A stretch of 32,000 nt of DNA from Longivirga aurantiaca. GTDB taxonomy: Bacteria; Actinomycetota; Actinomycetes; S36-B12; CAIYMF01. Below the pieces are notes generated by a model, which was not told where the DNA came from, made no database searches, and saw nothing but the letters and a program-made list of their open reading frames with translations. This document shows positions 11,378-31,423 of the stretch, piece by piece (position 1 is the stretch's first letter; the number at the start of each line of letters is the position of its first letter). Made by a program: the position numbers and the translations under genes. The stretch is taken from assembly GCF_042660085.1 (NCBI RefSeq), contig NZ_JBHSTI010000008.1:510001-542000 (forward strand). Direction: 5' to 3'.

Positions 11378-12550
11378 GTGTCCCTGCCGCCGCTGGTCGA
11401 GCCTGCCGACGCACTCACCGTCGACGAGGTCCGCCGCTACAGCCGCCACATCATCATCCCCGACGTCGGGATGGCGGGTCAGAAGCGTCTGAAGAACGCC
11501 AAGGTCCTGTGCGTCGGTGCGGGCGGCCTCGGCAGCCCCGCGCTGCTGTACCTGGCCGCAGCCGGCGTCGGCACGCTCGGCATCGTGGAGTTCGACACCG
11601 TCGACGAGTCGAACCTGCAGCGCCAGATCATCCACGGCCAGAGCGACATCGGTCGATCCAAGGCGGAGTCGGCGCGCGACTCGGTGCTCGAGGTCAACCC
11701 CTACGTGAACGTGATCCTCCACGACACGCGCCTCGACAACGACAACGTGCTCGACATCTTCAGCGGCTACGACCTCATCGTCGACGGCACCGACAACTTC
11801 GCGACGCGCTACATGGTCAACGACGCAGCGGTGCTGCTCGGGAAGCCCTACGTCTGGGGCTCGATCTACCGCTTCGAGGGCCAGGTCTCGGTCTTCTGGG
11901 ACGAGTACGGCCCGAACTACCGCGACCTCTACCCCGAGCCCCCGCCGCCCGGCATGGTGCCGTCGTGCGCCGAGGGCGGCGTGCTCGGCGTCCTCTGCGC
12001 GTCGATCGGCTCCGTCATGGTCACCGAGGCGATCAAGCTGATCACCGGCATCGGCGACACCCTGCTGGGCCGCCTGATGATCTACGACGCCCTCGAGATG
12101 TCGTACCGCACGGTGAAGATCCGCAAGGACCCGAACGCCACCCCGATCACGGGTCTCATCGACTACGACGCGTTCTGCGGCACGATCTCCGAGGCCGCGG
12201 CCGATGCTGCGGTGGGCTCGACGATCTCGGTCAAGCAGCTCGACGAGATGCTCGCCGAGCGTGAGCGCGGCGAACGCGACTTCGTGCTGATCGACGTCCG
12301 CGAGCAGAACGAGTGGGAGATCGTGAGCATCCCGGGCGCGGTGCTCATCCCCAAGGGCGATTTCCTGAACGGCAAGGCCCTGGAGCAGCTGCCCAGCGAC
12401 AAGCAGATCGTGCTGCACTGCAAGGTGGGCGGCCGTTCGGCGGAAGCCCTCGCGGTCGTGAAGGGCGCGGGCTTCTCCGACGCCATCCACGTCGGCGGCG
12501 GCATCGTCGCGTGGGTCAACCAGCTCCACCCCGAGCTGCCCGTCTACTGA
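11378..12550 (+). CDS. moeZ: MoeZ/MoeB-type adenylyltransferase-sulfurtransferase (ThiF/E1-like domain + C-terminal rhodanese)
   Basis: Track ORF 11378..12550, GTG start with GAGGAG SD. Motifs: RYSRHIIIPDVGMAGQKRLKNAKVLCVGAGGLGSP (nucleotide-binding GxGxxG) and NLQRQIIH. The rhodanese domain has the active-site loop HCKVGGRS. Confidence 0.95.
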   Translation: MSLPPLVEPADALTVDEVRRYSRHIIIPDVGMAGQKRLKNAKVLCVGAGGLGSPALLYLAAAGVGTLGIVEFDTVDESNLQRQIIHGQSDIGRSKAESARDSVLEVNPYVNVILHDTRLDNDNVLDIFSGYDLIVDGTDNFATRYMVNDAAVLLGKPYVWGSIYRFEGQVSVFWDEYGPNYRDLYPEPPPPGMVPSCAEGGVLGVLCASIGSVMVTEAIKLITGIGDTLLGRLMIYDALEMSYRTVKIRKDPNATPITGLIDYDAFCGTISEAAADAAVGSTISVKQLDEMLAERERGERDFVLIDVREQNEWEIVSIPGAVLIPKGDFLNGKALEQLPSDKQIVLHCKVGGRSAEALAVVKGAGFSDAIHVGGGIVAWVNQLHPELPVY

Positions 12551-12572
12551 CGCCCGCCCACCCGCTGTACGC

Positions 12573-12613
12573 ACGACGAGGCCCCGACCGGATCCCGGTC
12601 GGGGCCTCGTCGT
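12573..12613 (+). terminator. Intrinsic terminator hairpin after moeZ
   Basis: Perfect 19-bp stem: ACGACGAGGCCCCGACCGG (12573-12591), loop atc, CCGGTCGGGGCCTCGTCGT (12595-12613), followed by TCGCG. It begins 23 nt after the moeZ stop. Confidence 0.75.
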
Positions 12614-12615
12614 TC

Positions 12616-12712
12616 GCGATGAAGGCTGGTCCCCCGCAGGGTGAGAATGGCCGAAGGCCTCACCCGGTAGGGGACTTCATCCGGTAGAGCCGAGCAGTTC
12701 CGGCCTTCATGA
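12616..12712 (+). repeat. 97-bp structured repeat, copy A
   Basis: gcgatgaaggctggtcccccgcagggtgagaatggccgaaggcctcacccggtaggggacttcatccggtagagccgagcagttccggccttcatga. Its reverse complement recurs at 13297-13393 (88/97 identical, no gaps). It lies between the moeZ terminator and the stop of the Fe-S gene. Confidence 0.9.
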
Positions 12713-12726
12713 AGTTGGGGACTGGG

Positions 12727-13263
12727 TCAGCTCGCCGGTGCCGGGGCGTCCGAGAAGCCGACGCGGTTGTGCGTGCCGTCGCAGAACGGCTTGGTGGCCG
12801 AGTGCCCGCAGCGGCAGAGGTACGCCACCCGGCCCACCTCGCGCAGCACCGTGCCGTCGGCCGCGCACACGCTGACCGCTCCGCGGATCTCGTACGGGCC
12901 GTTCTCCGTCGCCGTGACGACGACGGCCGCCGCCGGCTCAGCGGGGGCCGTCGGCACCTCGGGTGCCGGCGACGGCAGGAGCAGCTCGCCCTTCGGCGCG
13001 GGCTCGACGTCGGTCCGCGTGTAGCGCAGCGCGCCGCTCGGGCATGTGTCGATCGCGGCGGCGAGCGCAGCGGCATCGGCGGCATCGGCGTCGATCCACG
13101 GCTTCTCCCGCGGCCGGAAGACCTGCGGGAGGGTGCGCGCGCACACGCCGGAATGGATGCAGATGTCGCTGTCCCAGTGGATCGTGAGGCCTGCGGTCGG
13201 GTAGTCGCGTCTGGTCACGAGCCGATGGTCCACCCACCGGGTCCCGAGCGCGCGTCGGGGCAC
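12727..13263 (-). CDS. Iron-sulfur protein: divergent 4Fe-4S mono-cluster domain fused to a CDGSH-type domain
   Basis: Track ORF 12727..13263. N-terminal half: IHWDSDICIHSGVCARTLPQVF...PWIDA...IDTCPSGALRY (C-x-H-x3-C ... CPSGAL pattern). C-terminal half: CRCGHSATKPFCDGTH, an exact fit to C-x-C-x2-S-x3-P-x-C-D-G-(S/A/T)-H. Start candidates are GTG 13263, 13234 and 13218. Confidence 0.88.
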   Translation of the reverse strand: MPRRALGTRWVDHRLVTRRDYPTAGLTIHWDSDICIHSGVCARTLPQVFRPREKPWIDADAADAAALAAAIDTCPSGALRYTRTDVEPAPKGELLLPSPAPEVPTAPAEPAAAVVVTATENGPYEIRGAVSVCAADGTVLREVGRVAYLCRCGHSATKPFCDGTHNRVGFSDAPAPAS

Positions 13264-13296
13264 CGACGCGCGCCTTTCCGGCGCAGTGCACGCTGC

Positions 13297-13393
13297 TCAT
13301 GAATGCCGGAGTTGTTCGGCTCTATGGGATGAAGTCCCCTACCGGGTGAGGCCTTCGGCCCTTCTCACCCGGCGGGGGCCCAGCCTTCATCGC
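13297..13393 (-). repeat. 97-bp structured repeat, copy B (inverted relative to copy A)
   Basis: The reverse complement of 13297-13393 is gcgatgaaggctgggcccccgccgggtgagaagggccgaaggcctcacccggtaggggacttcatcccatagagccgaacaactccggcattcatga, with 9 mismatches to copy A. It lies between the stop (13407) of the large membrane protein gene and the start of the Fe-S gene. Confidence 0.9.
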
Positions 13394-13406
13394 AGACCCG
13401 GGGGGG

Positions 13407-15902
13407 CTAGAGGGAGCCGACGCGCTGGAGCCAGTTGAAGGACCAGTAGCCGGGGAGGGTCGGCAGCCAGAAGGTGAGCAGCCGGAACAGCAGCGTGGCC
13501 GACACCGCGACGCCGGAGTCGACGCCGGCGGCGGTGAGGCCGAAGACGTACGCCGCCTCCACGGCACCGAGGCCGCCCGGCGTCGGAGCCGCCTGGCCGA
13601 GGGTCGACCCCGCGAGGTAAACCAGCGCGATCGCCGCGTAGTTCATGGGGCCGGAGTCGAACGCCTCGACGCAGGCGATCATGCAGAGGGCGAACGCCGC
13701 GTTGAGCAGCAGGATGCCGCCCATGCCCTCGACGATCTTCCACGGCTGCTGGGTCAGCGTGACCAGGCGGGGACCGACCTCGTTGAAGATCGGCCGCACG
13801 CGGTCGACGAGGATCTTGCGCACCGGCCCGAACATCAGCAGCAGCGCCAGGATCAGAACGACGCCGACGACTGCCCAGATCGCCCAGGCGGGCGGCTGCA
13901 GCTCGATCGAGCTGTTGGTGCCCGCCAGGATTCCGACGATGAACAGCATCGCGATGTGCAGGACGAAGGCGAACACCTGGGATACGCCGACGCTCGCCGC
14001 TGCGAGCGCGGGGTGCAGCCCTGACCGCTGCAGGTAGCGCACGTTCACCGCGACCGCGCCGACCGTGGGCGGCGAGACGAGCGTGGCGAACGCCGCCGCG
14101 AGCTGGGCGGCGAACGTCCGCACGTGCGAGAGCTGCTCGGGCACGAAGCCCGACAGGGACAGGGACGCACCGACGAAGGTCAGGAACGACAGGACGAGCG
14201 CGACGAGCGCCCACCGGAGGTCGGCCTGGCGCACGAGCCCGACGAGGTCGACCTGGGCCAGCTGGCTCAGCAGGACGTAGCCGGCGATGGTGCCCGCCAC
14301 GATCGTGAGCAGCGTGCGCGGCGTGATGCGGCGCAGCTCGATGGGCGGAGTCTCCGCCGCGGACGGCCTCAGCGCCACGAGCTCCTCGCGCACCAGGCCG
14401 AGCAGCTTCTTGTTCTTGCGCACGCGGCGTCGGGTGTCGCTGGAGAGCGCCACGATCTGCAGTGCCGGGAGCGCCCGCAGGATCTTCTCCTCGCCGAACA
14501 CCCGCGCCCCTGCCGCCACGGCCCGGGCCGGGTCGGTCATGAGCGCCGCGGTCGCGAGGATCTCGGCGAGGTCGATGCGCTCGGCGAGGTCGCCGGCCGC
14601 GATCGTGCCGTGCTGCAGGCCCGCGAGCCACACCTGGCCCTCGCGCGGCCGGATGATCTGCTCGGCGGAGAGCGCCCGATGCGCGATGCGGTCGCGGTGC
14701 AGCCGCTGCACCGCCGTGAACGCGGCGTCGAGGTCAGCGTCGGTCAGCACGCCGGGGCCGATCTCGGCCCACGTCGTGCCCGGGATCTGGTCGTACGCGA
14801 GCAGGGTGGAGTCGGGCCCGACCTCGCTCGCGAGGCGCAGCGCGGGCACCGGTGCCCCGGCCGCCGTGCCGGCGTAGGTCATGAGGGCCGCGTGCTCGAG
14901 CTGGGCGCGCATCGAGAAGCCGCCGGGCGAGCCGGGGTCGGTGCGCAGCCTGAGGTTGCGCCAGGCCGCGGCGCCGACGCCCGCGCCCTCGAGGTCGCGG
15001 TCGAAGACGACGACGCGCAGGGGGCTGCCGCTGCGCGTGTACGCCGAGTACTGGCGACCGCGCGCGGTGTGGCGGTCGGCCCGCAGGAGGGTGAGGGGCA
15101 GGCCGGCCCGGTCGAGGACGTCGGCCACCTGGATCCCGCTCGGGCGGGTGGTGGGCGTGCCCAGCGCGTAGCGGGCACCGAGCCCCACGGCCCAGCCGAG
15201 CAGCAGCGACAGCCCGATCACCACGACGGTGGACGATCCGTTCGTGATCGGGCCGACGGACACCGCGACCACCGTGATGACGGCGAACACGCCCCAGCGA
15301 CCGCGGCCGAGCAGGCGCGCCACGGTGATGAACGCGACGAGCCCGACGATGAGCGGGTTGAGCACGAACACCCGCGAGGGCTCGTCCGTGCCGGTGAGCG
15401 CCAGGAGCAGCTTGCTCGAGCCCCACAGCGCGACCAGGGCGGCGATGAGCACGGCGAGGGCGGTGGCCACCACCATCGCGCCGATCGCCTCGACCAGCTG
15501 GCGGCCGCGCTTGCGGACGAGCAGGTCGATGGCGGCGGCGATCGGGAGGCCGAGCAGGCCCAGCGCGCCGATGACGTTGAGCGCGAGCAGCAGGAACGAC
15601 GGCAGCCGCCCGCTCACCTGCGTGACGTCCTCCTCGATGCCCGTGCTGGTGGCGCTGAGGAAGTAGGCCACGGCCACGAGCACGGCCATGCCGAGGATCG
15701 CGAGGCTGAGACGGATCACGTCGGCCGGGCGGCGGACGCGCCGTGGGATCACGCCGTCCTCGATCACGAGGGTGCCGTGGCTGTCGTCGTCGAAGGTCCG
15801 CTCGAGCGGGTAGTCCGGCAGCGACTGGTCCCGGGACGTGGTCACGGGCGCCTCGGGACGGCCGTCGACGGGGTCGACGGACGGACGCGGCTCGACGGAC
15901 AC
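13407..15902 (-). CDS. Large multi-domain membrane protein: N-terminal TM bundle, ~277-aa soluble central domain, C-terminal flippase-like (LPG_synthase_TM / UPF0104-type) domain
   Basis: C-terminal ~831 aa of the 2078-aa track ORF 13407..19643. The last ~306 aa (nt ~13410-14327) have ~8 TM helices and the motif APTPGGLGAVEAAYV typical of the MprF-flippase-like family. The N-terminal region has ~6 hydrophobic helices. Start is uncertain (GTG 15902 or GTG 15845). Everything upstream is antisense to the atl and adnA genes and is rejected. Confidence 0.85.
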   Translation of the reverse strand: MSVEPRPSVDPVDGRPEAPVTTSRDQSLPDYPLERTFDDDSHGTLVIEDGVIPRRVRRPADVIRLSLAILGMAVLVAVAYFLSATSTGIEEDVTQVSGRLPSFLLLALNVIGALGLLGLPIAAAIDLLVRKRGRQLVEAIGAMVVATALAVLIAALVALWGSSKLLLALTGTDEPSRVFVLNPLIVGLVAFITVARLLGRGRWGVFAVITVVAVSVGPITNGSSTVVVIGLSLLLGWAVGLGARYALGTPTTRPSGIQVADVLDRAGLPLTLLRADRHTARGRQYSAYTRSGSPLRVVVFDRDLEGAGVGAAAWRNLRLRTDPGSPGGFSMRAQLEHAALMTYAGTAAGAPVPALRLASEVGPDSTLLAYDQIPGTTWAEIGPGVLTDADLDAAFTAVQRLHRDRIAHRALSAEQIIRPREGQVWLAGLQHGTIAAGDLAERIDLAEILATAALMTDPARAVAAGARVFGEEKILRALPALQIVALSSDTRRRVRKNKKLLGLVREELVALRPSAAETPPIELRRITPRTLLTIVAGTIAGYVLLSQLAQVDLVGLVRQADLRWALVALVLSFLTFVGASLSLSGFVPEQLSHVRTFAAQLAAAFATLVSPPTVGAVAVNVRYLQRSGLHPALAAASVGVSQVFAFVLHIAMLFIVGILAGTNSSIELQPPAWAIWAVVGVVLILALLLMFGPVRKILVDRVRPIFNEVGPRLVTLTQQPWKIVEGMGGILLLNAAFALCMIACVEAFDSGPMNYAAIALVYLAGSTLGQAAPTPGGLGAVEAAYVFGLTAAGVDSGVAVSATLLFRLLTFWLPTLPGYWSFNWLQRVGSL

Positions 15903-15951: not shown

Positions 15952-16338
15952 ATGGCGGGCGTGACGTCGCCCGCTCGGACCCGCCCGCGCGCGGATCCCG
16001 ACACCGCGGCGGGCCTGCCCACGCCGTACGCCGAGGCCGTGCTCGACCTCGTCTCGCGCATCCCCCCGGGCCGGGTGATGGCGTACGGCGACGTCGCCGC
16101 GGCCCTGCAGCGCGGCGGCGGGCCCCGGCAGGTCGGCACGGTCATGGCCCGCTTCGGCTCGGGCGTGCCGTGGCACCGGGTCGTGCGCGCGGACGGCTCC
16201 CCGGCGGTCGGCCACGAGGCCGAGGCCCTGCGACGCCACCGGCGCGAGGGCACCCCGCTGCGGGGCACCCGCATCGACATGGCCCGGGCGCGCTGGGCGC
16301 CCGAGATGTCGCACCCGGGTGATGGGATCGGGGAGTGA
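15952..16338 (+). CDS. Alkyltransferase-like (ATL) protein, MGMT-fold DNA-binding domain with Trp replacing the active-site Cys
   Basis: In track ORF 15838..16338, ATG 15952. Motifs: VMAYGDVAAAL, PRQVG, and PWHRVV instead of the PCHRV of true O6-alkylguanine transferases. It ends ...ARARW like E. coli YbaZ/Atl as I recall it. Its stop overlaps the adnA start (GTGA at 16335-16338). Confidence 0.88.
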   Translation: MAGVTSPARTRPRADPDTAAGLPTPYAEAVLDLVSRIPPGRVMAYGDVAAALQRGGGPRQVGTVMARFGSGVPWHRVVRADGSPAVGHEAEALRRHRREGTPLRGTRIDMARARWAPEMSHPGDGIGE

Positions 16339-19300
16339 CCAGCACCTCCGCCGACGCCGTGCACGCGTCGGACATCCCGAAGCTGGTCCTCGACCGGACG
16401 CCGCCGCTCTCGGCCGCGGCGCCCGCGCTCGACGCCGAGCAGCGCCGGGTCGTGGCGCACCGGGAGGGCCCGCTCCTCGTGCTCGCCGGCCCCGGCACGG
16501 GCAAGACCACGACCCTGGTCGAGGCGATGGTCGCGCGGTTGCAGGGACCGACCGCGGTGCGCGCCGACCAGGTGCTCGGCCTCACGTTCGGCCGCCGCGC
16601 CGCCGGGGAGTGGCGCGAGCGCGTCACCGCCCGCCTCGGTGGCGGGGTCGTCCCCACCGTCACCACGTTCCACTCGTTCGCCTACGCGCTCGTGCGCCAG
16701 GCGGCCGACCCCGAGGCCTTCGCCGAGCCCCTGCGCCTGCTGTCCGGCCCCGAGCAGGAGGCGCGCCTGCGCGAGCTGCTCACGGGTGCCGTCTCGGACG
16801 GGCGCCTCGCCTGGCCCGCCGACCTCGCCGCCGCGCTCGGCACGCGCGGCCTCGCGTCCGAGGTGCGCGCCGTCGTGGCGAAGGCCCGCGCCCTCGGCCT
16901 CGACCCCTGGGACCTCGAGGCGCTGGCCGCCCACGCGGGCAGCGTCGGCCCGGCGTGGAAGGCGGTCGGAGAGTTCCTCGGCGACTACCTCGACGTGCTC
17001 GACGCCGAGGGGGTCACCGACTACACCGAGGTCGTCCACCGGGCCGGGCTGCTCGCGCACGACCCGGACGTGCAGGCCCGGCTGCGGGCGCAGTACTCCG
17101 TGGTGCTGGTCGACGAGTTCCAGGACACCGACCCCGCGCAGGTGCGGCTGCTGCAGGGGCTCGTCGGGCCCTCGACGTCGTTCGTGGTGGTGGGCGATCC
17201 CGACCAGAGCATCTACGCGTTCCGAGGCGCCGACATCGGCGGGATCCTCGGCTTCCGCGAGACCTTCCGAGCCCCCGACGGGTCCGACGCCCCCGTCATC
17301 GTGCTCCGCCGCACCCGCCGCTTCGGGCCGGTGCTGCGCGCGGCCGCCGGGCGGGTGCTGCGCACCACCTCGCTCGCCCCGCTGCCCGCCACGATCGTCT
17401 ACGACCACCGGCACCCGGTCAGCGAGGCACCGGCGTACGGCGAGGGCTCGCTCGAGGTGCGCACCTACGACTCCGAGCACGCCGAGGCCGCGCACGTCGC
17501 CGACCGGCTCCGTCGCGAGCACCTCGAGCGCGGCGTGCCCTGGTCGGACATGGCGGTGCTTGTGCGCAGCGGGCGTCGCTCGATCCCCACGCTGCGACGG
17601 GCGCTGCTCTCCGCCGGCGTCCCGGTCGAGGTGGCGTCCGACGAGGTGCCGCTGCACGACGAGCCCGCCCTCGCGCCGCTCCTCACCCTGCTGCGGGTGG
17701 CGGTCGACCTCGGTCAGCCGCAGGGCCCGCCCGATGCCGGGGCGGTCGACGACGACACGGTCCACACGCTGCTGCTCTCCCCTCTCGGCGACGCCGATCC
17801 GGCCGACGTCCGGCGGCTCGGCGGCGTGCTGCGCCGGCTCGCGCGCGAGGAAGACCCCGACCAGCGGCCCGCACCGTCGGGCGAGCTGCTGCGCCGTCTG
17901 CTCGTCGACCTCGTGGCCGATCCCGCGACCGTCCTGCCCGTGCAGCAGTCGGCGGCGGGCAGGGACGCCCGCGCGCGGCACGCGCAGGAGTGCGTGGTCC
18001 GTGTCGCCCGGCTCCTGCACGCGGCACGCGAGGTCATGGCGAGGCGGGGGAGCACCGAGGAGGTGCTCTGGACCGTCTGGTCCGGCTCGAACGGCCGGGG
18101 CGGGTCGGGATGGCCACGGCGCCTCGAGCAGGCGGCCCTGCGCGGGGGCGACGGCGGTCGCCGTGCCGACTCCGACCTCGACGCGGTCCTCGGGCTCTTC
18201 GCCGCGGCCGAGCGGGCCGAGGACCGGTTCGGCGGACGCCGCGGCGTCGCCAACTTCCTGGCCGAGCTCGACTCGCAGGTGATCCCGGCCGACAGCCTCG
18301 CCGAACGCGGCATCCGCGGGCCTGCCGTCCGGCTGCTCACCGCGCACCGTGCGAAGGGCCTGCAGTGGCGGCTCGTCGTGGTGCCGGGCGTGCAGGAGGG
18401 CGTGTGGCCCGATCTCCGTCGTCGGGGCTCGCTCCTGCAGGCCGACCGCCTCGAGCGCACGGGCCTCGGCGAGGCCGCGCCCCCCGCGGCCCTGCTGGCC
18501 GAGGAGCGGCGGCTCTTCTACGTCGCCTGCACGCGGGCGCAGGAGTCGCTGGTCGTCTCGGCCGTGCGGTCGAGCCACGACGACGGCCCCCAGCCGTCGC
18601 GCCTGCTCGCCGAGCTCGCCGGCGGCGAGGACTCGGTGGCCCACGTCATCGGTCGCCCGGCGCGGCCGCTGTCGGTGAGCGGGCTCGTCGCACAGCTGCG
18701 CGCGACGGCGGTCGACAGCGCGCTGCCGGCCACGTTGCGGGCAGCGGCCACCCGCCGGCTCGCGGCCCTGGCCTCGGCCGCCGACGACGACGGCCGCCCG
18801 CTGGTTCCGGCCGCCCACCCCGACCGCTGGTGGGGCCTGCTCGACCCGACCGAGTCGTCGGAGCCGGTCCGTGAGGCCGACGCTCCGGTCGCGCTGTCCG
18901 GCAGCCAGCTCTCGACCCTCGGGAAGTGCCCGCTGCAGTGGTTCCTCGGGCACGAGACCCACGCCGAGGTGGCGCGCACGACCGCGCTCGGGTTCGGGTC
19001 GGTGGTGCACACGCTCGCCGACGCCGTCGCGCGCGGCGAGCTGCCGCCGGACCTCGCCGTGCTCGAGACCGAGGTCGACCGGATCTGGTCCGCGCTGGGG
19101 TTCGAGGCCACCTGGCAGAGCGAGGGCGAGCGGGTCGAGGCGAGCGAGGCGCTGCGCCGGTTCCTCGACTGGCACGACGGCAGGGACGACCGCACCTTCG
19201 TGGCGAGCGAGCACGAGTTCGACCTGCAGCTGCCCGTCGGCGAGCACGGCGTCCGGGTGCGCGGATCGTTCGACCGGGTCGAGGTCGACGCCGACGGCGC

Positions 19301-19709
19301 CGTGCACGTGGCCGACCTCAAGACCCAGCGCAACCCCGAGACCGGAGACGCCCTCGCCGAGCACATCCAGCTCGGCGTCTACCAGCTCGCGGTGCAGCGC
19401 GGCGCGCTCGACTCGCTGCCGGCCGACGTCCGCGAGCGCGCCGGTCTCCCGGCGCCCGGTGAGTCCGTCCACGTCGCCGGGGCCGAGCTCGTGCTGCTGC
19501 GCGTCGAGCGCAAGCGCACCGGGATGCCGGCGGTGCAGGAGCAGGCGCCGATCGGCGACGGGCCGTCGTGGGTCGACGAGGCGGTCGAGTCGGCCGAGCA
19601 GCGGGTGCGCGCCGAGCTGTTCGTGGCGCGCCCCGGCAGCCACTGCTCGATGTGCGACTTCCGCCGTGCCTGCCCCGCGGTCGACGAAGGCCGGGAGGTG
19701 CTGCCGTGA
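16335..19709 (+). CDS. adnA: AdnA-type helicase-nuclease subunit (UvrD-like motor + C-terminal RecB-family nuclease with Cys cluster)
   Basis: Track ORF 16335..19709 (GTG start). Motifs: Walker A AGPGTGKTTT, VLVDEFQDTD, VVGDPDQSIYAFRGA, TAHRAKGLQW, YVACTRA. The C-terminal nuclease has FDRVEVD...VADLKT and the Cys pattern C-x(n)-C-x2-C-x5-C (CPLQWF ... CSMCDFRRAC). Confidence 0.93.
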   Translation: MTSTSADAVHASDIPKLVLDRTPPLSAAAPALDAEQRRVVAHREGPLLVLAGPGTGKTTTLVEAMVARLQGPTAVRADQVLGLTFGRRAAGEWRERVTARLGGGVVPTVTTFHSFAYALVRQAADPEAFAEPLRLLSGPEQEARLRELLTGAVSDGRLAWPADLAAALGTRGLASEVRAVVAKARALGLDPWDLEALAAHAGSVGPAWKAVGEFLGDYLDVLDAEGVTDYTEVVHRAGLLAHDPDVQARLRAQYSVVLVDEFQDTDPAQVRLLQGLVGPSTSFVVVGDPDQSIYAFRGADIGGILGFRETFRAPDGSDAPVIVLRRTRRFGPVLRAAAGRVLRTTSLAPLPATIVYDHRHPVSEAPAYGEGSLEVRTYDSEHAEAAHVADRLRREHLERGVPWSDMAVLVRSGRRSIPTLRRALLSAGVPVEVASDEVPLHDEPALAPLLTLLRVAVDLGQPQGPPDAGAVDDDTVHTLLLSPLGDADPADVRRLGGVLRRLAREEDPDQRPAPSGELLRRLLVDLVADPATVLPVQQSAAGRDARARHAQECVVRVARLLHAAREVMARRGSTEEVLWTVWSGSNGRGGSGWPRRLEQAALRGGDGGRRADSDLDAVLGLFAAAERAEDRFGGRRGVANFLAELDSQVIPADSLAERGIRGPAVRLLTAHRAKGLQWRLVVVPGVQEGVWPDLRRRGSLLQADRLERTGLGEAAPPAALLAEERRLFYVACTRAQESLVVSAVRSSHDDGPQPSRLLAELAGGEDSVAHVIGRPARPLSVSGLVAQLRATAVDSALPATLRAAATRRLAALASAADDDGRPLVPAAHPDRWWGLLDPTESSEPVREADAPVALSGSQLSTLGKCPLQWFLGHETHAEVARTTALGFGSVVHTLADAVARGELPPDLAVLETEVDRIWSALGFEATWQSEGERVEASEALRRFLDWHDGRDDRTFVASEHEFDLQLPVGEHGVRVRGSFDRVEVDADGAVHVADLKTQRNPETGDALAEHIQLGVYQLAVQRGALDSLPADVRERAGLPAPGESVHVAGAELVLLRVERKRTGMPAVQEQAPIGDGPSWVDEAVESAEQRVRAELFVARPGSHCSMCDFRRACPAVDEGREVLP

Positions 19710-22700
19710 GCAACGTCCCGGTGCGCCCGCGCACCGCCGTCGACGGCTTCGGCGTCCGCGAGCTGAAGGCGCTGCTCGGCGTCCCGTTCAGCGACGAGCA
19801 GATCGCGGCGATCACCGCGCCGCTGTCGCCGTACGTCGTCGTGGCGGGCGCCGGCTCGGGCAAGACCACGGTGATGACGGCACGCGTGGTCTGGCTCGTG
19901 GCGACTGGCCAGGTGCGCGCCGACCAGGTGCTCGGCCTCACCTTCACGAACAAGGCCGCGAGCGAGCTCGCCTCCCGTGTCCGGGACGCTGTGCGCGAGC
20001 TCGCGCAGCAGGAGTCCGGCGACCTGCCTCCGGGCGAGGAGGTCGACCTCGGCGAGCCCGTGATCGCCACCTACCACTCGTTCGCGGGCCGGCTGCTGTC
20101 CGAGCACGGGCTGCGCATCGGGGTCGAGCCGCAGGCGCGGCTGCTCGGCGAGGCGGCGTCGTACCAGCTCGCCCACCGCGTCGTGGTGCGCACCCGGCGC
20201 GACCTCGTGCCGCTCGGCAAGGGCGTCGGCGGCGTGGTCGGCGACCTGCGGGCGCTCGACGGCGAGCTCGCCGAGCACTGCGTGGAGCTCGCCGAGCTCC
20301 GGGCCTGGGACGAGCGGTTCGTCGCCGAGGTCGAGGGCCAGGTCAAGATCATGGCGGGTGCCCGCGACGCCGCTGCGGTGTCGCGCAAACGGATCGAGCT
20401 CGCGCACCTCGTCGAGGAGTACCGCGCCGAGCGCCGCCGGCTCGACGTCGTGGACTTCTCCGACCAGATGCGCTTCGGTGCGCGCCTCGCCGAGGACTGC
20501 CCGGAGGTCGGGGCGGCGCTGCGCGAGCAGTTCGCCGTGGTCCTGCTCGACGAGTACCAGGACACGTCCGTCGCGCAGCGGCGACTGCTCACCGGGCTGT
20601 TCGGCGGCGGTCACCCGGTGACTGCGGTCGGCGACCCGCTCCAGGCCATCTACGGCTGGCGCGGTGCGAGCGTCGCCAACATCGACGACTTCCCCGTGCA
20701 CTTCGCGCCGGCATCGGGCGGTCGGGCGCCCGTGCTGCCGCTCGCGGAGAACCGGCGCTCGGGCAGCAACGTGCTCGACTCCGCCAACCTCGTGGCCGCC
20801 GACCTGCGGGCGCTGCACCCCGAGGTCGCGGCGCTCGTGGCGGCCGACCCCGGCAAGCCGCCGGGCGCGGTGCGGCTCGCCCTGCACCAGACGTACGCCG
20901 AGGAGATCGACTGGCTCGCCGACCAGGTGGTCGGCGAGATCGCGGCGGGCACGGCACCGGGCGACGTGGCGCTGCTGGTGCGCGTCGGGTCCGACCTGCC
21001 GCCGGTGATGGCGGCGCTGGCCGACCGTGGCGTGCCGTTCGAGGTGCGCGGCGTCGACGGCCTCCTCGCGGTGCCCGAGGTGGCGGAGGTGCTCGCCGTC
21101 CTCGACGTGCTGCACGACTCGACCGCCAACCCCGCCCTCGTGCGGCTGCTGGCCGGCCCGCGCTGGCGCATCGGCCCGCGCGACCTCGCGCTGCTCGGCC
21201 GCCGCGCCCGCCAGCTCACCGGTGGACGGGCATGGGGCGAGGCACGCGACCTCCAGCAGCAGCTCGACGACTCCGTGGGCGGCACCGATCCGGCCGACGT
21301 CGTGTCGCTGCTCGACGCGCTCGACGACCCGGGCGACCTGCCGTACGGCAACGACGCGCGGCGCCGGTTCGCCGCACTGTCCGGCGAGATCCGCGCGCTG
21401 CGCCGGCACGTCGGCGACCCGCTGCCCGACCTGGTCCACCGAGTCGTCACGACGACCGGGCTCGACATCGAGCTCGCCGCATCGCCCGAGCTCGTGGTGC
21501 TGCGTAGGGCCGAGGCGCTGGCGTCGTTCGTCGACCTCGTGGCGGCGTTCCAGGACGCCGAGGGCGCGTCGTCGGTCACGGCGTTCCTGTCGTGGCTGCG
21601 CCTCGCCGAGCGCTTCGACAAGGTGCCCGAGCTCGAGCGCACGCCGTCCCGCGACGCCGTGCAGCTCATGACCGTCCACAAGGCCAAGGGCCTCGAGTGG
21701 CCGGTCGTCGTGCTGCCGTCGGTGACGGTCGGCGTGTTCCCCAGCGCGCGGGGCCGGTCGCGCTGGCCGGAGAGCGCCAAGACGCTGCCGTACCCGTTGC
21801 GCGGCGACTCCGCAGCCCTGCCCCGTCTCGACGGGCTGACCAAGAAGGACTTCGACGCGTTCGTCGACTCCTGCCGGGCCGGGGACGAGCTCGAGGAACG
21901 ACGGCTGGCCTACGTCGCGCTGACGCGTGCCAAGCGCCTGCTCGTCGCCTCGTCGTCGTGGTGGGGGCCGCGGCAGAAGAAGGTCCGCGGGCCGTCGCCG
22001 TACCTCGACCTGCTGCGCGAGGCGGCCCTCGACGGCGCGGGCGAGGTGGCCGTGTGGGCCGAGCGCCCCGACGACGACGAGTCCAACCCGGTGCTCGACG
22101 AGGTGGTCGAGGTGCCCTGGCCGGTCGTGCCGGACGCCGCTGCTCTCGCGGCGCGGCGCGCGGCCGCGACCTCCGTGCTCGACGGGCTCGGCACCGACAT
22201 CTCAGCGCTCATGCGCGAGCACGTCGACCTCGCCGTGGTCGAGGGCGTCTCGCCGCTGCTCGGGCTCGATGCCGCCGACCTCGGCACCGTCGTCGGCTGG
22301 GACGACGACATCGCGCTGCTGCTCGAGGAGCGACGCTCCGAGCGATCGGCCACGCGGGTGGTGCCGGTGCCGTCGTCGCTCTCGACGTCGGACCTCGTGC
22401 GGCTCGCGGCCGATCCCGACTCCTTCGCACGGCGCCTCGCTCGCCCCGTGCCGGCCGCGCCGGCGCAGTCCGCCCGCCGCGGCACGCGCTTCCACGCCTG
22501 GGTCGAGGCCCACTACGGCGTGCAGCCGCTCCTCGAGCCCGACGACCTGCCGGGAGCGGCGGACGGCCTCGACGACGACTCCGACGAGGCCCTCGACGCC
22601 ATGCGTGCGGCGTTCCTCGCGAGCCCGTGGGCCTCCCGGACGCCGGTTGGGATCGAGGTCGGGTTCTCGCTCGTCCTCGGTGGCCGTGTCGTCCCGGGCC

Positions 22701-22951
22701 GCATCGACGCGGTCTTCTCCGAGACGGCGGCCGACGGTGTGACGCGCTACGAGGTCGTCGACTGGAAGACCTCGCGCCGTCAGAGCGCCGACCCGCTGCA
22801 GCTCGCGGTCTACCGCGTCGCCTATGCCGAGCTGCTCGGCGTACCGCTCGAGCGGGTCGACGCCGCGTTCGTCTACGTGCGCGACGGCTCGGTCGTGCGG
22901 CCGGAGGGTCTGCCCGACCGTTCTGGCCTCGAGGTGCTGCTCGCCGGCTGA
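19706..22951 (+). CDS. adnB: AdnB-type helicase-nuclease subunit (UvrD-like motor + C-terminal RecB-family nuclease)
   Basis: In track ORF 19568..22951. GTG 19706 overlaps the adnA stop (GTGA), with GGGAGG 7 nt upstream. Motifs: AGAGSGKTT, VLLDEYQDTS, AVGDPLQAIYGWRGA, TVHKAKGLEW, YVALTRAK. The nuclease motifs are GRIDAVF...EVVDWKT. No Cys in the C-terminal domain. Confidence 0.93.
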   Translation: MSNVPVRPRTAVDGFGVRELKALLGVPFSDEQIAAITAPLSPYVVVAGAGSGKTTVMTARVVWLVATGQVRADQVLGLTFTNKAASELASRVRDAVRELAQQESGDLPPGEEVDLGEPVIATYHSFAGRLLSEHGLRIGVEPQARLLGEAASYQLAHRVVVRTRRDLVPLGKGVGGVVGDLRALDGELAEHCVELAELRAWDERFVAEVEGQVKIMAGARDAAAVSRKRIELAHLVEEYRAERRRLDVVDFSDQMRFGARLAEDCPEVGAALREQFAVVLLDEYQDTSVAQRRLLTGLFGGGHPVTAVGDPLQAIYGWRGASVANIDDFPVHFAPASGGRAPVLPLAENRRSGSNVLDSANLVAADLRALHPEVAALVAADPGKPPGAVRLALHQTYAEEIDWLADQVVGEIAAGTAPGDVALLVRVGSDLPPVMAALADRGVPFEVRGVDGLLAVPEVAEVLAVLDVLHDSTANPALVRLLAGPRWRIGPRDLALLGRRARQLTGGRAWGEARDLQQQLDDSVGGTDPADVVSLLDALDDPGDLPYGNDARRRFAALSGEIRALRRHVGDPLPDLVHRVVTTTGLDIELAASPELVVLRRAEALASFVDLVAAFQDAEGASSVTAFLSWLRLAERFDKVPELERTPSRDAVQLMTVHKAKGLEWPVVVLPSVTVGVFPSARGRSRWPESAKTLPYPLRGDSAALPRLDGLTKKDFDAFVDSCRAGDELEERRLAYVALTRAKRLLVASSSWWGPRQKKVRGPSPYLDLLREAALDGAGEVAVWAERPDDDESNPVLDEVVEVPWPVVPDAAALAARRAAATSVLDGLGTDISALMREHVDLAVVEGVSPLLGLDAADLGTVVGWDDDIALLLEERRSERSATRVVPVPSSLSTSDLVRLAADPDSFARRLARPVPAAPAQSARRGTRFHAWVEAHYGVQPLLEPDDLPGAADGLDDDSDEALDAMRAAFLASPWASRTPVGIEVGFSLVLGGRVVPGRIDAVFSETAADGVTRYEVVDWKTSRRQSADPLQLAVYRVAYAELLGVPLERVDAAFVYVRDGSVVRPEGLPDRSGLEVLLAG

Positions 22952-23050
22952 CCTGCCGCCCACCGCCGTGCGGCCTGCCTCAGCGTCCCGCGTGCCTCGC
23001 GTGGCTACGGTGAGCGTGCACGATCGGCGCGGACGGGCAGGGAGGACCAC

Positions 23051-24181
23051 GTGACCAGCGAGCCCGTCGGCGCGCTCGGCCCGAGCGACCCGACGCCCGA
23101 GGACGTCGACGCCCTGGTCGGCAGCCCGCCGCGCAGTCTCGGCCGTCGCCTGCTCTCGGGGCTGCTGACCTACGGCGTGGTGGCGCTCGCGCTCTGGTAC
23201 CTCGTGAAGCAGCTGAGGAGCGAGGGCGGCATCGGCGATGCCCTCGCGCTCATCACACCGGCGCAGGTCGCGCTCATGTGCGTGCTGGGCGTGGTCAACC
23301 TCGCCACCAACTGGCCCCCGATCGTCATCGCCCTGCCCGGCCTGCGCGTCCGCGAGGCGGCCGTCACCAACACGGCGTCGGCGGCGCTCTCGAACACCGT
23401 GCCGGAGGGCGGCGCCGTCGCGACCGCGCTCAACGTCGCGATGCTGCGCTCGTGGGGCTTCACCATCCGCGACATCACCTCCGAGATCCTCGTGACGGGC
23501 ACCTGGTCGCAGCTGACGAAGTACGTGCTGCTCTCGATCACGCTCGGGGTCGTGGTGATCCAGGGGACCGCTCCGGACGGCGCCGGCGTGTGGGCGCTCG
23601 TGCTCGTCGTGCTCGTGGCGATCGCCGTCGTCCTGCTGCTGCTCGTCCTGCGCAGCGAGCGGTTCGCCGTGCGGCTGGGGCGCTTCGTCGACTCGTTCCT
23701 CACCCGCGTGACCTCGTGGGTGCGGCACCCCTCGCATACGCGCTTCGCCGACGACGTGCCGCGCTTCCGCACCGGCATGGTCGGGCTCCTGCGCGTGTGC
23801 TGGGGACGCCTCACCGTGGCGATGGTCGTGTCGCTGCTGACCGCCGGCTCGATCCTCTACATCGCCTGCGTCATGCAGGGTCTCGGGGGCACCGTCACGT
23901 GGGCTCTCGCGATGACGGCGTACGGCCTTGCGACGTTCGCGTCGCTCCTGGTGCCCACGCCGGGGGGTCTGGGCGTCGCCGAGGTCGTCCTGACGTCGGT
24001 GCTGGCGTGGGCGGCGCCGGAGTCGGCGCAGGCCGCGGTGCTCGCCGCGGTCCTGCTGTACCGCCTCGCGACGTTCCTCGTCCCGATCCCGATCGGACTC
24101 GTGACCTACCTCTACTGGCGCACGTCCACCGCCTGGCGCGTCGACGTCGACTCCAAGCCCGTCGATCTCTCCGCCCGCTGA
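23051..24181 (+). CDS. Flippase-like (LPG_synthase_TM / UPF0104-type) integral membrane protein, stand-alone, 376 aa
   Basis: Track ORF 23051..24181, GTG start with GGGAGG upstream. About 8 TM helices and the family motif VPTPGGLGVAEVVLTSVL. It is a paralogue of the C-terminal domain of the 13407..15902 product. Confidence 0.85.
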   Translation: MTSEPVGALGPSDPTPEDVDALVGSPPRSLGRRLLSGLLTYGVVALALWYLVKQLRSEGGIGDALALITPAQVALMCVLGVVNLATNWPPIVIALPGLRVREAAVTNTASAALSNTVPEGGAVATALNVAMLRSWGFTIRDITSEILVTGTWSQLTKYVLLSITLGVVVIQGTAPDGAGVWALVLVVLVAIAVVLLLLVLRSERFAVRLGRFVDSFLTRVTSWVRHPSHTRFADDVPRFRTGMVGLLRVCWGRLTVAMVVSLLTAGSILYIACVMQGLGGTVTWALAMTAYGLATFASLLVPTPGGLGVAEVVLTSVLAWAAPESAQAAVLAAVLLYRLATFLVPIPIGLVTYLYWRTSTAWRVDVDSKPVDLSAR

Positions 24182-29045: not shown

Positions 29046-29061
29046 TGACGTACGCCGTGCG

Positions 29062-29484
29062 TCAGCCCATGGGCAGGCGCTGGGTGACGCGGTACTGGTT
29101 GCCGGTGGGGTCGCGGAAGCCGAAGTCGATGCCGTACGGCTGCTGGTTCGGCTTGTCGATGGTCTCGACGCCGTTCGCGACGAGCGCGTCGTACACCGCC
29201 AGTGCGTCGTCGACGGTGAAGAACACGGCCGTGGCGAAGCCCTTGGCCGCGATGTCCTCCACCTGCGCCTTGGTCGCCTCGTCCATGACGGGCGGCCCAG
29301 GGATGGCCATGAGCACCATGGCGGTTCCGTCCTGGCCCTTCGGCCCGACGGTGAGCCACCGGAAGTTGCCGAGCTCGGCGACGGTGACGTCCTCCTTGAT
29401 CTCGAAGCCGACCTTGTCGGTCCAGAAGGAGGCCGCCTCGTCCTGGTCGCGGACCCAGATCTGGGTGGTGGAGAGCGTGAGCAT
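29062..29484 (-). CDS. VOC (glyoxalase/bleomycin-resistance/dioxygenase) family protein
   Basis: Track ORF 29062..29484, with GGAAGG SD 8 nt upstream. Size and pattern (IWVRDQDEAASFWTDKVGFE..., FRDPTGNQY...) are typical of single-module VOC proteins. Confidence 0.87.
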   Translation of the reverse strand: MLTLSTTQIWVRDQDEAASFWTDKVGFEIKEDVTVAELGNFRWLTVGPKGQDGTAMVLMAIPGPPVMDEATKAQVEDIAAKGFATAVFFTVDDALAVYDALVANGVETIDKPNQQPYGIDFGFRDPTGNQYRVTQRLPMG

Positions 29485-29530
29485 GGGCTGACCTTCCGTC
29501 GTCGTCGTGGTGCCCCGAACCTAGGGCGCG

Positions 29531-30031
29531 TCAGGACGCCCGGTCTTCTCCGTTCGTGCTGCCCTTCACGGGCCTGCCGTACGCGCGGAGCATGCACCCC
29601 GGGATCGTGATCAGCTCGGCGGCAGGTGGGAACGACGCGCGGTAGGCGGTGGGGGACTTGCCGTACGCAGTGGTGAAGCTCGTGGTGAACGAGCCGACGC
29701 TCGTGAGCCCGACGCGCATGCAGATGTCGGCCACGGACCAGTCGGTGCTGCGCAGGAGCGTCGCCGCGCGCTCGAGACGGCGCGTGAGCAGATAGGAGTA
29801 CGGCGACTCGCCGAACGCGCGCTTGAACTCGCGGCTGAAGTGGGCGCGCGACAGATGCGCGGCCGCCGCGAGGTCGTCGACCGTGAGCGGCTCGGAGTAC
29901 CGCTGGTCGGCGAGGTCGCGCGCCCGCGTGAGGTGGCGGACCGGCGCGGTCGCGGGGGTGGACGGCACCGGCCCAGCGTAGGCACCGGGACCGACGAGCG
30001 GGAGCGCCGGCGCCGGCGTCTGCCAGGACAC
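29531..30031 (-). CDS. AraC-family helix-turn-helix transcriptional regulator (short, DNA-binding domain only)
   Basis: Track ORF 29531..30031. Motifs: LTVDDLAAAAHLSRAHFSREFKRAFGESPYSYLLTRRLERAATLL and VADICMRVGLTSVGSFTTSFTTAYGKSPTAYR, the two HTH units of AraC/XylS. It sits 46 bp upstream of the VOC gene on the same strand. Confidence 0.88.
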   Translation of the reverse strand: MSWQTPAPALPLVGPGAYAGPVPSTPATAPVRHLTRARDLADQRYSEPLTVDDLAAAAHLSRAHFSREFKRAFGESPYSYLLTRRLERAATLLRSTDWSVADICMRVGLTSVGSFTTSFTTAYGKSPTAYRASFPPAAELITIPGCMLRAYGRPVKGSTNGEDRAS

Positions 30032-30109
30032 CGCGGCGGTTGCCGCCCTAGCGTGGTGCTGTCCGCAGCGGAGTGCCGTGGGGCGCCCGCGACGCGGGCG
30101 GAGGCGGTC

Positions 30110-31366: not shown

Positions 31367-31391
31367 CTGGTCCTCCGACGCGCAGGCGCTG

Positions 31392-31423
31392 CCGGGCCGG
31401 CCAGCAGGACTGCTGCCGGCCCG
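31392..31423 (+). terminator. Stem-loop after the alpha/beta hydrolase gene
   Basis: CCGGGCCGGC(C)AGCAG - ga - CTGCTGCCGGCCCG, a ~14-bp stem with one bulged C, located 26 nt after the stop at 31366. Confidence 0.55.

What the first reader, a model, noticed from the sequence alone, without database searches (positions are those of the whole stretch)
12616..13393. Two inverted copies of a 97-bp element (88/97 identical, no gaps) bracket a single small Fe-S gene
Copy A (12616-12712) and the reverse complement of copy B (13297-13393) align end to end with 9 substitutions and no indels. The first 65 nt differ at only 3 positions. Together they enclose exactly one gene, the 4Fe-4S/CDGSH fusion (12727..13263, minus strand). 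The gaps to that gene are only 14 bp on one side and 33 bp on the other.

This geometry has three possible consequences.
- A minus-strand transcript covering the gene would carry ~97-nt complementary sequences at its 5' and 3' flanks. These could form a long closing duplex, which might affect stability, processing or translation.
- At the DNA level, the pair is a substrate for inversion of the ~780-bp segment.
- The Fe-S gene may have arrived as a foldback-type cassette, or two copies of a dispersed MITE/REP-like element may have landed either side of it.

I see no transposase or recombinase in the window and no obvious target-site duplication. The flanks are cgtcgttc / agttgggg for copy A, and ccgggtct / gcagcgtg for copy B in the same orientation. 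I do not recognise the element as any RNA family I know.
Basis: seen in the sequence. Interest (0 to 1): 0.7.

Follow-up and report, generated by a model that had tools for sequence, protein, structure and literature searches.

The report
Dispersed palindromic repeats flank flippable gene
The two 97-bp inverted copies are real, but they are two members of a widely scattered small palindromic repeat family of an uncultured high-GC actinobacterial group. Related genomes carry the small iron-sulfur gene between them in either orientation, or lack it, so the pair looks like ordinary recombination-prone repeat DNA and not a dedicated switch.

Summary
In detail: 12616-12712 and 13297-13393 are inverted copies (88/97, no gaps) around one Fer4_19+CDGSH gene.

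They are not a locus-specific device. A degenerate core pattern found 95 metagenome stretches. A profile then found 137 copies in 104 loci, in about 120 different intergenic contexts and mostly just after stop codons. The family has three forms:
- a 23-nt palindrome;
- a roughly 52-nt short form;
- a roughly 97-nt long form with an extra hairpin that shows compensatory changes. The window carries two long forms.

There is no Rfam, plasmid, phage or literature match.

Each arm lies sense-downstream of one of the two convergent outer genes, moeZ and an LPG-synthase-like gene. Across 11 related lineages the Fe-S gene is older than the arms: it occurs with no arm or with one. Within the arm-bearing clade it is inverted at least twice independently. 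In one lineage it is cleanly absent, leaving the two outer arm ends joined.

Best reading: two copies of a REP/MITE-like repeat form a recombination-prone inverted pair. The window contains no recombinase. A closing RNA duplex is thermodynamically possible, but arm complementarity is not conserved. One point remains unexplained: family-wide, paired copies almost always face inward around single genes.

The parts
11378..12550 (+). moeZ (ThiF + rhodanese), the outer gene converging on the locus from the left
   Evidence: Pfam ThiF 6.9e-79 and Rhodanese 9.9e-15; 95-99% identical proteins in related contigs
12570..12616 (+). GC-rich hairpin after the moeZ stop codon (likely the moeZ terminator, with no U tract); homologous hairpins are present in relatives
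   Evidence: 22-nt arms, 95% complementary, 3-nt loop; conserved in L001, L002, L004, L088, L187 and L197; no canonical terminator consensus
12616..12712 (+). Copy A: long form of the dispersed element, in sense orientation downstream of moeZ
   Evidence: matches the family pattern and profile
12626..12674 (+). Hairpin module of copy A, lying between GAAGG and CTTC; short-form copies lack it
   Evidence: Alignment with short-form relatives; 12 long-form copies, 17 predicted pairs, 3 with compensatory changes
12675..12709 (+). Conserved core of copy A (variant type 'T2': CTTCATCC..TAGAGCCGA.CA.....GGCCTTCA)
   Evidence: Degenerate pattern match
12727..13233 (-). Fe-S gene (Fer4_19 + CDGSH, 168 aa from the start used in the homologue's gene call; the longest ORF extends to 13263)
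13234..13296 (-). 5' leader that stays attached to the gene in the inverted variants; includes the box CACTGCGCCGG and a GC-rich hairpin (about 13243-13269)
   Evidence: Alignment of upstream regions; in L004 the inverted block runs from window 13334 to 12686
13297..13393 (-). Copy B: long form of the element, in sense orientation 13 nt downstream of the stop codon of the LPG-synthase-like gene
13335..13383 (-). Hairpin module of copy B
13300..13334 (-). Conserved core of copy B
13407..15840 (-). LPG_synthase_TM (MprF-like) gene, the outer gene converging from the right. The stop at 13407 is exact; the start is approximate, inferred from the 802-831-aa orthologues
   Evidence: Synteny and Pfam annotation of orthologous loci; 89-99% identity over the C-terminal 400 aa

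Best explanation
The two arms are two copies of a small, dispersed, palindromic intergenic repeat. It resembles REP elements and MITEs, is not in Rfam, and belongs to an uncultured high-GC actinobacterial lineage. Each copy lies in sense orientation just downstream of one of the two convergent outer genes: moeZ on the plus strand and the LPG-synthase-like gene on the minus strand. The small Fe-S gene, which was already at this locus, is therefore enclosed by an inverted repeat.

Shown:
- The element family, its modular short and long forms, and its usual position after stop codons.
- The Fe-S gene predates the arms.
- The gene lies in both orientations in lineages that carry both arms.
- One lineage lacks the gene and keeps only the joined outer arm ends.

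Inferred:
- Homologous recombination and gene conversion between the arms flips the segment and keeps the two arms alike. Alternatively, homologous replacement uses the arms as portable homology.
- A deletion across the foldback removes the gene.
- No dedicated recombinase or RNA function is needed.
- Each arm probably acts locally as a 3'-end hairpin for its outer gene.
For: Family:
- 95 metagenome stretches match the core pattern.
- A profile finds 137 copies in 104 loci, in 122 distinct contexts.
- The element's 5' side faces a gene stop codon in 68 of 94 scorable cases, at a median of 14.5 nt.
- Short and long forms differ by a hairpin module with 3 compensatory pairs.
- There is no Rfam hit in the window or in 12 element-bearing loci.
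- Genes enclosed by other pairs are ordinary (aminotransferases, permease, GNAT, PAP2, DsrE-like, ECF sigma) and include no transposase.

History of the locus:
- Fe-S present without arms in L189; no element core on the moeZ side in L197 (the other side is off that contig).
- Fe-S present with one diverged arm in L086, L087 and L186.
- Fe-S present with two arms in L001-L005, L088, L089, L090 and L118.

Inversion:
- L004 positions 1-64 and 748-789 are collinear with the window plus strand, while 88-737 match window 13334 down to 12686.
- L088 shows the same switch over 3.3 kb.
- A neighbour-joining tree of the Fe-S proteins places both flipped loci inside the two-arm clade as separate events.
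- The arms share at most 19 nt (L004) and 33 nt (L088) of exact sequence. That is far below the k=127 in L004's contig name, which argues against an assembly artefact.

Deletion:
- L187 and L188 (MoeZ 95% identical) have the moeZ hairpin, then GCGATGAAGGCGGCCTTCATCGC, then the LPG-synthase stop. Both outer junctions are exactly where they lie in the window.

Other:
- The arms at this locus share nearly the same sequence in the family's otherwise hypervariable linker, which fits local gene conversion.
- No recombinase or transposase was found among the window's scanned ORFs.
Against: - No reads were available, so it is unknown whether both orientations coexist in one population.
- The copy number in the source genome is unknown. 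The window (32 kb) and L001 (20.5 kb) contain only these two copies.
- L004's present arms are too dissimilar for easy in-place recombination (19 nt exact). That variant may instead have arisen by allelic replacement or in an ancestor with more similar arms.
- L189 has the opposite orientation with no element at all, so orientation can differ without the arms, or the arms have since decayed there.
- The family-wide excess of inward-facing pairs (13 gene-enclosing pairs against 0 outward-facing and 2 direct) is not predicted by two independent insertions.
- Gene contexts come from a crude GC3-based gene caller.
Confidence: 0.72

Rival explanations
1. The orientation variants arose by allelic replacement rather than in-place inversion. 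Incoming DNA of the form 'arm-gene-arm' recombines with the resident locus using the conserved arms as portable homology. Because the arms are inverted copies, the gene can enter in either orientation.
For: - Mosaic arms. The L004 gene encodes the same protein as L001, with 9 nucleotide differences in 507, but its 5' arm is a different sequence type and its leader differs.
- The arms of L004 share only 19 nt of exact sequence.
- The content enclosed by other pairs differs between orthologous loci: L110/L137, L141/L167, and L099/L183/L136.
Against: - No donor or recipient pair has been identified.
- Arms of 52-97 bp are short for homologous replacement.
- Gene-content differences at about 80% nucleotide identity are common anyway, so the varying enclosed content carries little weight.
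Confidence: 0.12
2. Programmed invertible element. A site-specific recombinase encoded elsewhere recognises the conserved element and flips element-flanked genes, switching the Fe-S gene between the LPG-synthase and moeZ transcription units.
For: - Both orientations exist in nature.
- The element core is near-invariant and species-specific, as expected for a protein-binding site.
- Pairs are almost always inward-facing around single genes.
Against: - No recombinase was found in the 32-kb window.
- Most copies are solo.
- No other element-flanked locus in the data set shows a strand switch between homologous contigs.
- The arms are long and variable in form, unlike typical invertase sites (own knowledge).
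- The leader moves with the gene, so no obvious on/off logic follows from a flip.
Confidence: 0.07
3. RNA-level device. A minus-strand transcript spanning both arms forms a closing duplex of about 97 bp that controls processing, stability or translation of the Fe-S mRNA.
For: - The minimum-energy fold of the 811-nt transcript pairs the arms: -513.8 kcal/mol, z-score -13 against shuffles.
- Known small repeats such as Correia and ERIC elements are transcribed and processed as hairpins (own knowledge; PMC3733652 notes RNA roles for REP elements).
Against: - Complementarity between the arms is not conserved: L088 is short against long, and L004 and L090 have different sequence types.
- Each arm also folds stably alone, at -44 to -52 kcal/mol.
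- Selection for a duplex would permit outward-facing pairs too, and none are seen.
- Relatives express the same gene with no arm or one arm.
- No promoter or terminator evidence shows that a single transcript spans both arms.
Confidence: 0.05
4. Foldback cassette or composite transposon. The Fe-S gene was brought to this locus together with its two arms as a mobile unit.
For: - The terminal 10-nt inverted ends (GCGATGAAGG / CCTTCATCGC) resemble transposon ends.
- The gene plus the inner parts of the arms are absent as one block in L187 and L188.
Against: - The gene occupies the same locus without arms or with one arm in other lineages.
- There is no target-site duplication and no transposase.
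- The other element-flanked genes with orthologous contigs in the data (the GNAT, YjbR and permease loci) keep their positions across species.
Confidence: 0.03

Closest known systems
REP elements, BIMEs and REPINs (repetitive extragenic palindromes; Bertels & Rainey 2011, PMC3116915; Di Nocera et al. 2013, PMC3733652)
   Same: - Short palindromic units dispersed in extragenic DNA, mostly downstream of coding regions.
- They occur as singletons and as inverted dimers.
- One inverted dimer type is privileged and head-to-tail dimers are rare.
- DNA can be inserted between dimer partners.
- The units combine into mosaic, nested structures.
- Copies at orthologous sites carry lineage-specific sequence variants.

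   Different: - The unit is longer (52-97 nt) and compound: a 10-nt terminal inverted repeat, a conserved non-palindromic core, and a hypervariable 5-6-nt linker.
- A GTAG tag precedes only one subfamily.
- No associated RAYT transposase could be looked for.
- The host is an actinobacterium. The 2013 survey's main text does not mention Actinobacteria.
- Many inverted pairs enclose whole genes rather than 20-100-bp spacers.
Bacterial MITEs such as Correia, ERIC and RUP elements
   Same: - Non-coding, 50-150 bp, multi-copy, with terminal inverted repeats and able to fold as a hairpin.
- Located next to genes, where they can end up in transcripts.
   Different: - No target-site duplication.
- No parent insertion sequence with matching ends was seen.
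- Copies persist at orthologous positions across species with about 80% flank identity, which is unlike recent selfish spread.
Repeat-mediated chromosomal inversion between inverted copies of dispersed repeats (insertion sequences, rRNA operons, REP elements)
   Same: - Inverted homologous copies flank a segment found in both orientations in related genomes.
- The arms are homogenised.
   Different: - Very small scale: 584 bp and one gene.
- Very short arms, 52-97 bp.
- Whether the flips are recurrent within populations is unknown.
Invertons (phase-variable invertible DNA; e.g. bioRxiv 10.1101/2023.03.11.532203)
   Same: An inverted-repeat pair flanks a segment that exists in two orientations.
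   Different: - No invertase nearby.
- The arms are members of a mostly solo dispersed family.
- A whole gene with its leader flips, not a promoter or a coding segment.
- Heterogeneity within a population has not been shown.

Membership tests
REP / REPIN | Short imperfect palindrome repeated many times in extragenic DNA | tested here: met
   137 copies in 104 loci, all intergenic and in about 120 contexts. The GAAGG...CCTTC palindrome and the hairpin module are conserved. The copy number per single genome was not measured.
REP / REPIN | Over-represented inverted doublets able to form one hairpin | tested here: inconclusive
   Five inward-facing doublets have 0-40-nt spacers (L131, L129, L179, L185, L158). 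A further 13 inward-facing pairs enclose genes, against 0 outward-facing and 2 direct. However, most copies are solo, and no genome-wide null model could be run.
REP / REPIN | Association with a RAYT (HUH tyrosine transposase) gene flanked by the repeats | not testable with these tools
   Only fragments of the host genomes are held. No transposase-like gene is present in the window or among the enclosed genes that were scanned.
REP / REPIN | Conserved GTAG or CGTC tetranucleotide at one end of the palindrome (PMC3733652) | tested here: inconclusive
   Subfamily A copies read CGTAGTCACTGAAGG, with GTAG 6 nt before the palindrome. Subfamilies B, C and T2, including both window arms, do not.
MITE | Terminal inverted repeats | tested here: met
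   GCGATGAAGG ... CCTTCATCGC (10 nt) in many short-form copies. In the window the 3' ends read CCTTCATGA and CATTCATGA.
MITE | Target-site duplication flanking each copy | tested here: not met
   No duplicated flank appears at the window arms or in the aligned copies.
MITE | A related autonomous insertion sequence with the same ends | tested here: not met
   All inverted pairs enclose ordinary genes and none encloses a transposase. There are no hits in the plasmid or phage collections. The search covered only about 0.56 Mb of held loci.
Inverton (programmed invertible element) | Inverted repeats flanking a segment found in both orientations | tested here: met
   L004 and L088 compared with the window and L001. 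The two orientations are in different samples and lineages.
Inverton (programmed invertible element) | Both orientations coexisting within one population (read level) | not testable with these tools
   No read data are available.
Inverton (programmed invertible element) | Dedicated serine or tyrosine invertase, nearby or global | tested here: not met
   None found among the ORFs of the 32-kb window scanned against Pfam. A distant, global invertase cannot be excluded.
Any Rfam RNA family | Covariance-model match at the gathering score | tested here: not met
   No hit across the whole window. Only chance-level miRNA-like hits at E<=10. Nothing falls on the element in 12 other loci.
Intrinsic terminator | GC-rich hairpin followed by a U tract | tested here: not met
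   No terminator-like site in 12300-13700. The element has no T run.

The most novel reading that the evidence does not exclude
The element is not merely selfish DNA. On this reading it is a selection-maintained, REPIN-like system of an uncultured actinobacterial lineage, and its inward-facing pairs mark single genes genome-wide as flippable, deletable or replaceable modules.

Three features fit this reading:
- The core is near-invariant and species-specific at orthologous sites.
- A hypervariable linker sits inside that core.
- Outward-facing pairs are absent.

The Fe-S locus would be the first case caught in several states.
Probability: 0.15. Interest if true: 0.7.

Novelty: new member of a known kind. 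Interest (0 to 1): 0.35.

Why it matters
The result replaces an apparently special 'gene in a hairpin' with a concrete and checkable picture. The arms belong to an apparently undescribed REP-like repeat family in uncultured high-GC actinobacteria found in wastewater and other metagenomes.

The comparison series shows what such short inverted repeats do to the gene between them: inversion, arm homogenisation and clean loss.

For annotators, it flags a repeat that coincides with contig ends (19 of 128 copies lie within 60 nt of a locus end) and sits in 3' regions.

For people who study mobile DNA, three observations may be worth a genome-scale follow-up:
- conservation at orthologous sites with species-specific sequence variants;
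- a hypervariable linker inside an otherwise fixed core;
- inward-facing pairs only.

Tried and rejected
- Exact 22-mer of the long-form core in genome contigs: 0 hits.
- Exact-protein look-ups of the window's own Fe-S and MoeZ proteins: not on record, so the source genome was not identified.
- Rfam at gathering and permissive thresholds: nothing real.
- Plasmid collection and viral contigs: no copies.
- Literal sequence search in the paper library: none.
- Sigma-70 promoter and terminator consensus scan of 12300-13700: nothing, so the Fe-S promoter could not be placed.
- Composite transposon or insertion-sequence ends: rejected, because all enclosed genes are ordinary.
- 'Pair born as a pair': rejected. 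The arms of most other pairs (for example L099, L137, L155, L167) carry different hypervariable linkers, while the Fe-S arms share nearly the same linker.
- All-against-all comparison of the held loci for other strand switches at elements: only the Fe-S locus, plus an odd junction in L118, turned up.
- 'Sits after a stop codon' as the explanation for the inward-facing bias: rejected. Context frequencies of solo copies predict many direct and outward-facing pairs.

Full report
**1. The observation**

The repeat finder reports arms at 12616-12712 and 13297-13393. They are 97 nt long, 91% complementary and 584 nt apart. A direct comparison gives 9 substitutions and no gaps, with only three substitutions in the first 65 nt. 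A 34-nt core is identical in both arms, occurs nowhere else in the window, and never appears in shuffled sequence.

The enclosed minus-strand ORF is a genuine Fer4_19 + zf-CDGSH gene. Its closest homologue, P0001 (93% identical), starts ten codons downstream of the longest ORF. The likely start is therefore 13233, which leaves a 63-nt leader.

The window is about 73% GC. Its MoeZ protein is about 90% identical to those of MAGs labelled Candidatus Nanopelagicales and 84% identical to Jiangella and Phytoactinopolyspora. No recombinase or transposase domain was found among the window ORFs I scanned against Pfam. The adnA/adnB-like ORFs at 16323-22951 were identified only through their counterparts in L001 and L186.

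**2. What the arms are**

Close relatives of the locus (L001-L005, whose Fe-S protein is 93% identical to the window's) carry a shorter inverted pair of about 52 nt at the same two positions. The sequence is GCGATGAAGG-GGG-CCTTCGTTGCTAAGAGCGCAACAAATCCGGCCTTCATCGC. Both window arms differ from this by an extra hairpin of about 45-49 nt, inserted between GAAGG and CTTC.

A degenerate pattern covering all these copies matched 95 metagenome stretches. A profile built from them finds 137 copies in 104 loci. They lie in 122 distinct and unrelated intergenic contexts, from several samples and several species.

The family is modular:
- a minimal 23-nt palindrome, GCGATGAAGGnnnCCTTCATCGC (L138, L187, L188);
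- the short form, which equals that palindrome plus a 30-nt conserved core bounded by a CCTTC direct repeat;
- the long form, which carries the hairpin module;
- inward-facing doublets.

The hairpin module is known from 12 copies. It has 17 predicted pairs, three of which show compensatory changes. It occurs once in the opposite orientation, in L180.

The element has no Rfam match in the window or in 12 other element-bearing loci. It has no copies in the plasmid or viral collections, and its sequence does not appear in the paper library.

**3. Where the copies sit**

I used a simple GC3-based gene caller to score contexts. The 5' end of the element faces a stop codon on the same strand in 68 of 94 scorable cases, at a median distance of 14.5 nt. 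Its 3' end faces a stop codon in 55 cases and a start codon in 37.

Both window arms follow this rule. Copy B lies in sense orientation 13 nt after the stop codon of the LPG-synthase-like gene. Copy A lies in sense orientation after the moeZ stop codon and its hairpin.

At orthologous positions in species with about 80% flank identity, the element is still present. Each copy carries the variant typical of its own species:
- A: GTCACTGAAGGTGG
- B: GTGCGATGAAGGTGA...ATAGAGC...AATTCC
- C: GTTTGCGATGAAGGGGG

A 5-6-nt linker between GCAACA and GGCCTTCA, by contrast, differs in almost every copy. The core therefore evolves in concert or under constraint, and the linker does not.

**4. History of the Fe-S locus**

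I recovered eleven lineage states.

| State of the Fe-S gene | Arms | Loci |
|---|---|---|
| Window orientation | two arms | window, L001/2/3/5/118, L089, L090 |
| Window orientation | one diverged arm, on the moeZ side only | L086, L087, L186 |
| Window orientation | no element core on the moeZ side (other side off the contig) | L197 |
| Opposite orientation | two arms | L004, L088 |
| Opposite orientation | no element | L189, L190 |
| Absent | the 23-nt palindrome sits exactly where the two outer arm ends lie | L187, L188 |
| Absent | no element, 32-nt spacer | L191-L196 |

Flank identities order these lineages consistently.

The gene is therefore older than the arms, so the cassette-arrival idea fails.

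A neighbour-joining tree of the Fe-S proteins places L004 next to L001 (identical protein, 9 nucleotide differences in 507). It places L088 next to L090. That gives two separate flips inside the clade that has both arms.

L004 aligns to the window as follows: positions 1-64 match 12561-12624 (plus strand), 88-737 match 13334 down to 12686 (minus strand), and 748-789 match 13377-13422 (plus strand). L088 shows the same pattern over 3.3 kb.

The arms in those contigs share at most 19 and 33 nt of exact sequence. L004's contig name indicates k=127. A repeat-induced de Bruijn mis-join is therefore unlikely, although only reads can prove this.

The L187/L188 state is most simply a deletion between the GAAGG direct repeats at the base of the foldback. 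It keeps both outer junctions. An 'empty site' reading is less parsimonious, because the gene predates the arms.

The two arms at this locus share nearly the same linker: CAACTCC against CAGTTCC in the window, identical in L088, and one difference in L089. Arms of most other pairs do not share linkers. This points to local gene conversion.

**5. Mechanism and rivals**

The best-supported reading is ordinary. Two copies of a REP/MITE-like repeat, each associated with the 3' end of an outer gene, form a short inverted repeat. Recombination between the arms flips, homogenises and occasionally deletes the enclosed gene.

*Allelic replacement.* A variant of this mechanism, replacement using the arms as portable homology, could explain the mosaic arms of L004.

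*Programmed invertase switch.* This is not supported. No recombinase was found, most copies are solo, and no other element-flanked locus shows a strand switch in the held data.

*RNA closing duplex.* The duplex is the minimum-energy fold of the full transcript, at -513.8 kcal/mol with a z-score of -13. But each arm also folds alone. Arm complementarity is not conserved in relatives. The gene also exists with no arm or with one arm.

**6. What remains odd**

Across the family, two copies on one contig are almost always inward-facing.
- Thirteen distinct pairs enclose one to three ordinary genes: DUF5318, YjbR, PAP2, a permease, aminotransferases, dienelactone hydrolase, GNAT, DsrE-like and an ECF sigma factor.
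- Five more are short-spacer doublets.
- None are outward-facing, and two are direct.

The context preferences of solo copies predict roughly 0.27 inward-facing, 0.21 outward-facing and 0.52 direct, so the bias is real.

Published REP families show the same kind of privileged inverted dimer. Head-to-tail dimers are rare in them, and DNA can be inserted between dimer partners (PMC3733652; PMC3116915). I therefore read this as REP-like organisation rather than something new in kind, but its mechanism is unknown.

The content enclosed by pairs also differs between orthologous loci in three further cases. At this level of divergence that is not clearly more than background.

**7. Verdict**

The element family appears undescribed, but it belongs to a known kind. 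Interest is moderate to low for the locus itself. It would be higher only if the family proves to be a constrained, REPIN-like system that makes single genes modular.

Noticed in passing
L118:1-2950 compared with window 29057-31803 and 12592: In contig L118 the Fe-S locus is intact. To the left of the loop of the moeZ hairpin, however, the sequence is not moeZ. It is 1.6 kb of unrelated DNA, followed by DNA homologous to window 29-31.8 kb in inverted orientation. This is either a larger rearrangement with a breakpoint in the hairpin loop or a chimeric contig.
   Followed up: partly
family-wide; e.g. L099:2425-2478, L137:9601-9654, window 12696-12701 and 13308-13313: A 5-6-nt linker between GCAACA and GGCCTTCA differs in almost every copy, while the rest of the element is near-invariant and species-specific, even at orthologous sites.
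   Followed up: partly
L001:10575-10600 (moeZ side), L004:52-82, L090:440-475, L156:5385-5412: The element's 5'-terminal 15-18 nt (GGGTTTGCGATGAAG) is repeatedly duplicated in tandem. This could be a footprint of nested insertion or of gene conversion into an older element end.
   Followed up: no
window 13243-13269 (minus-strand leader of the Fe-S gene): A perfect 11-bp GC-only hairpin (GCGCGCGTCGG / CCGACGCGCGC) lies about 10 nt upstream of the start used in the homologue's gene call. The L001 lineage has a different hairpin there. The box CACTGC(T/G)CCGG next to the arm is conserved, including in lineages without that arm.
   Followed up: no
L110 compared with L137:9654-11272; L141:1888-4298 compared with L167:1095-1586; L099 compared with L183 and L136: Orthologous element pairs in different species enclose different gene content: an amino-acid permease present or absent, a 2-kb difference, and a 356-aa gene present or absent.
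   Followed up: partly
L186:11196-11250, L086:6530-6600, L197:2190-2226: In lineages without a full element on the moeZ side, the moeZ terminator hairpin itself has the form GAAGG-[GC hairpin]-CCTTCGTC. This is the same frame as the element's 5' hairpin. In L086 and L186 it is followed by a degenerate core (GTCGTCACGAGCGCAAC).
   Followed up: partly
L180:440-490: The long-form hairpin module occurs in the reverse orientation inside an otherwise normal element. The module therefore behaves as an independent palindromic unit.
   Followed up: no
window 23006-24181 (+): A second LPG_synthase_TM paralogue lies 10 kb from the first, just beyond the AdnAB-like helicase-nuclease genes.
   Followed up: no
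Fe-S protein residues about 75-110 (window 12900-13010): The Pro/Ala/Glu-rich linker between the Fer4_19 and CDGSH domains is hypervariable in length and sequence among orthologues. It accounts for much of the low identity of this protein (61-93%) compared with MoeZ (90-99%).
   Followed up: no
L111:12485-12640 (-): A c-di-AMP riboswitch (Rfam RF00379, 65 bits) lies in one of the element-bearing metagenome contigs. It is unrelated to the element.
   Followed up: no
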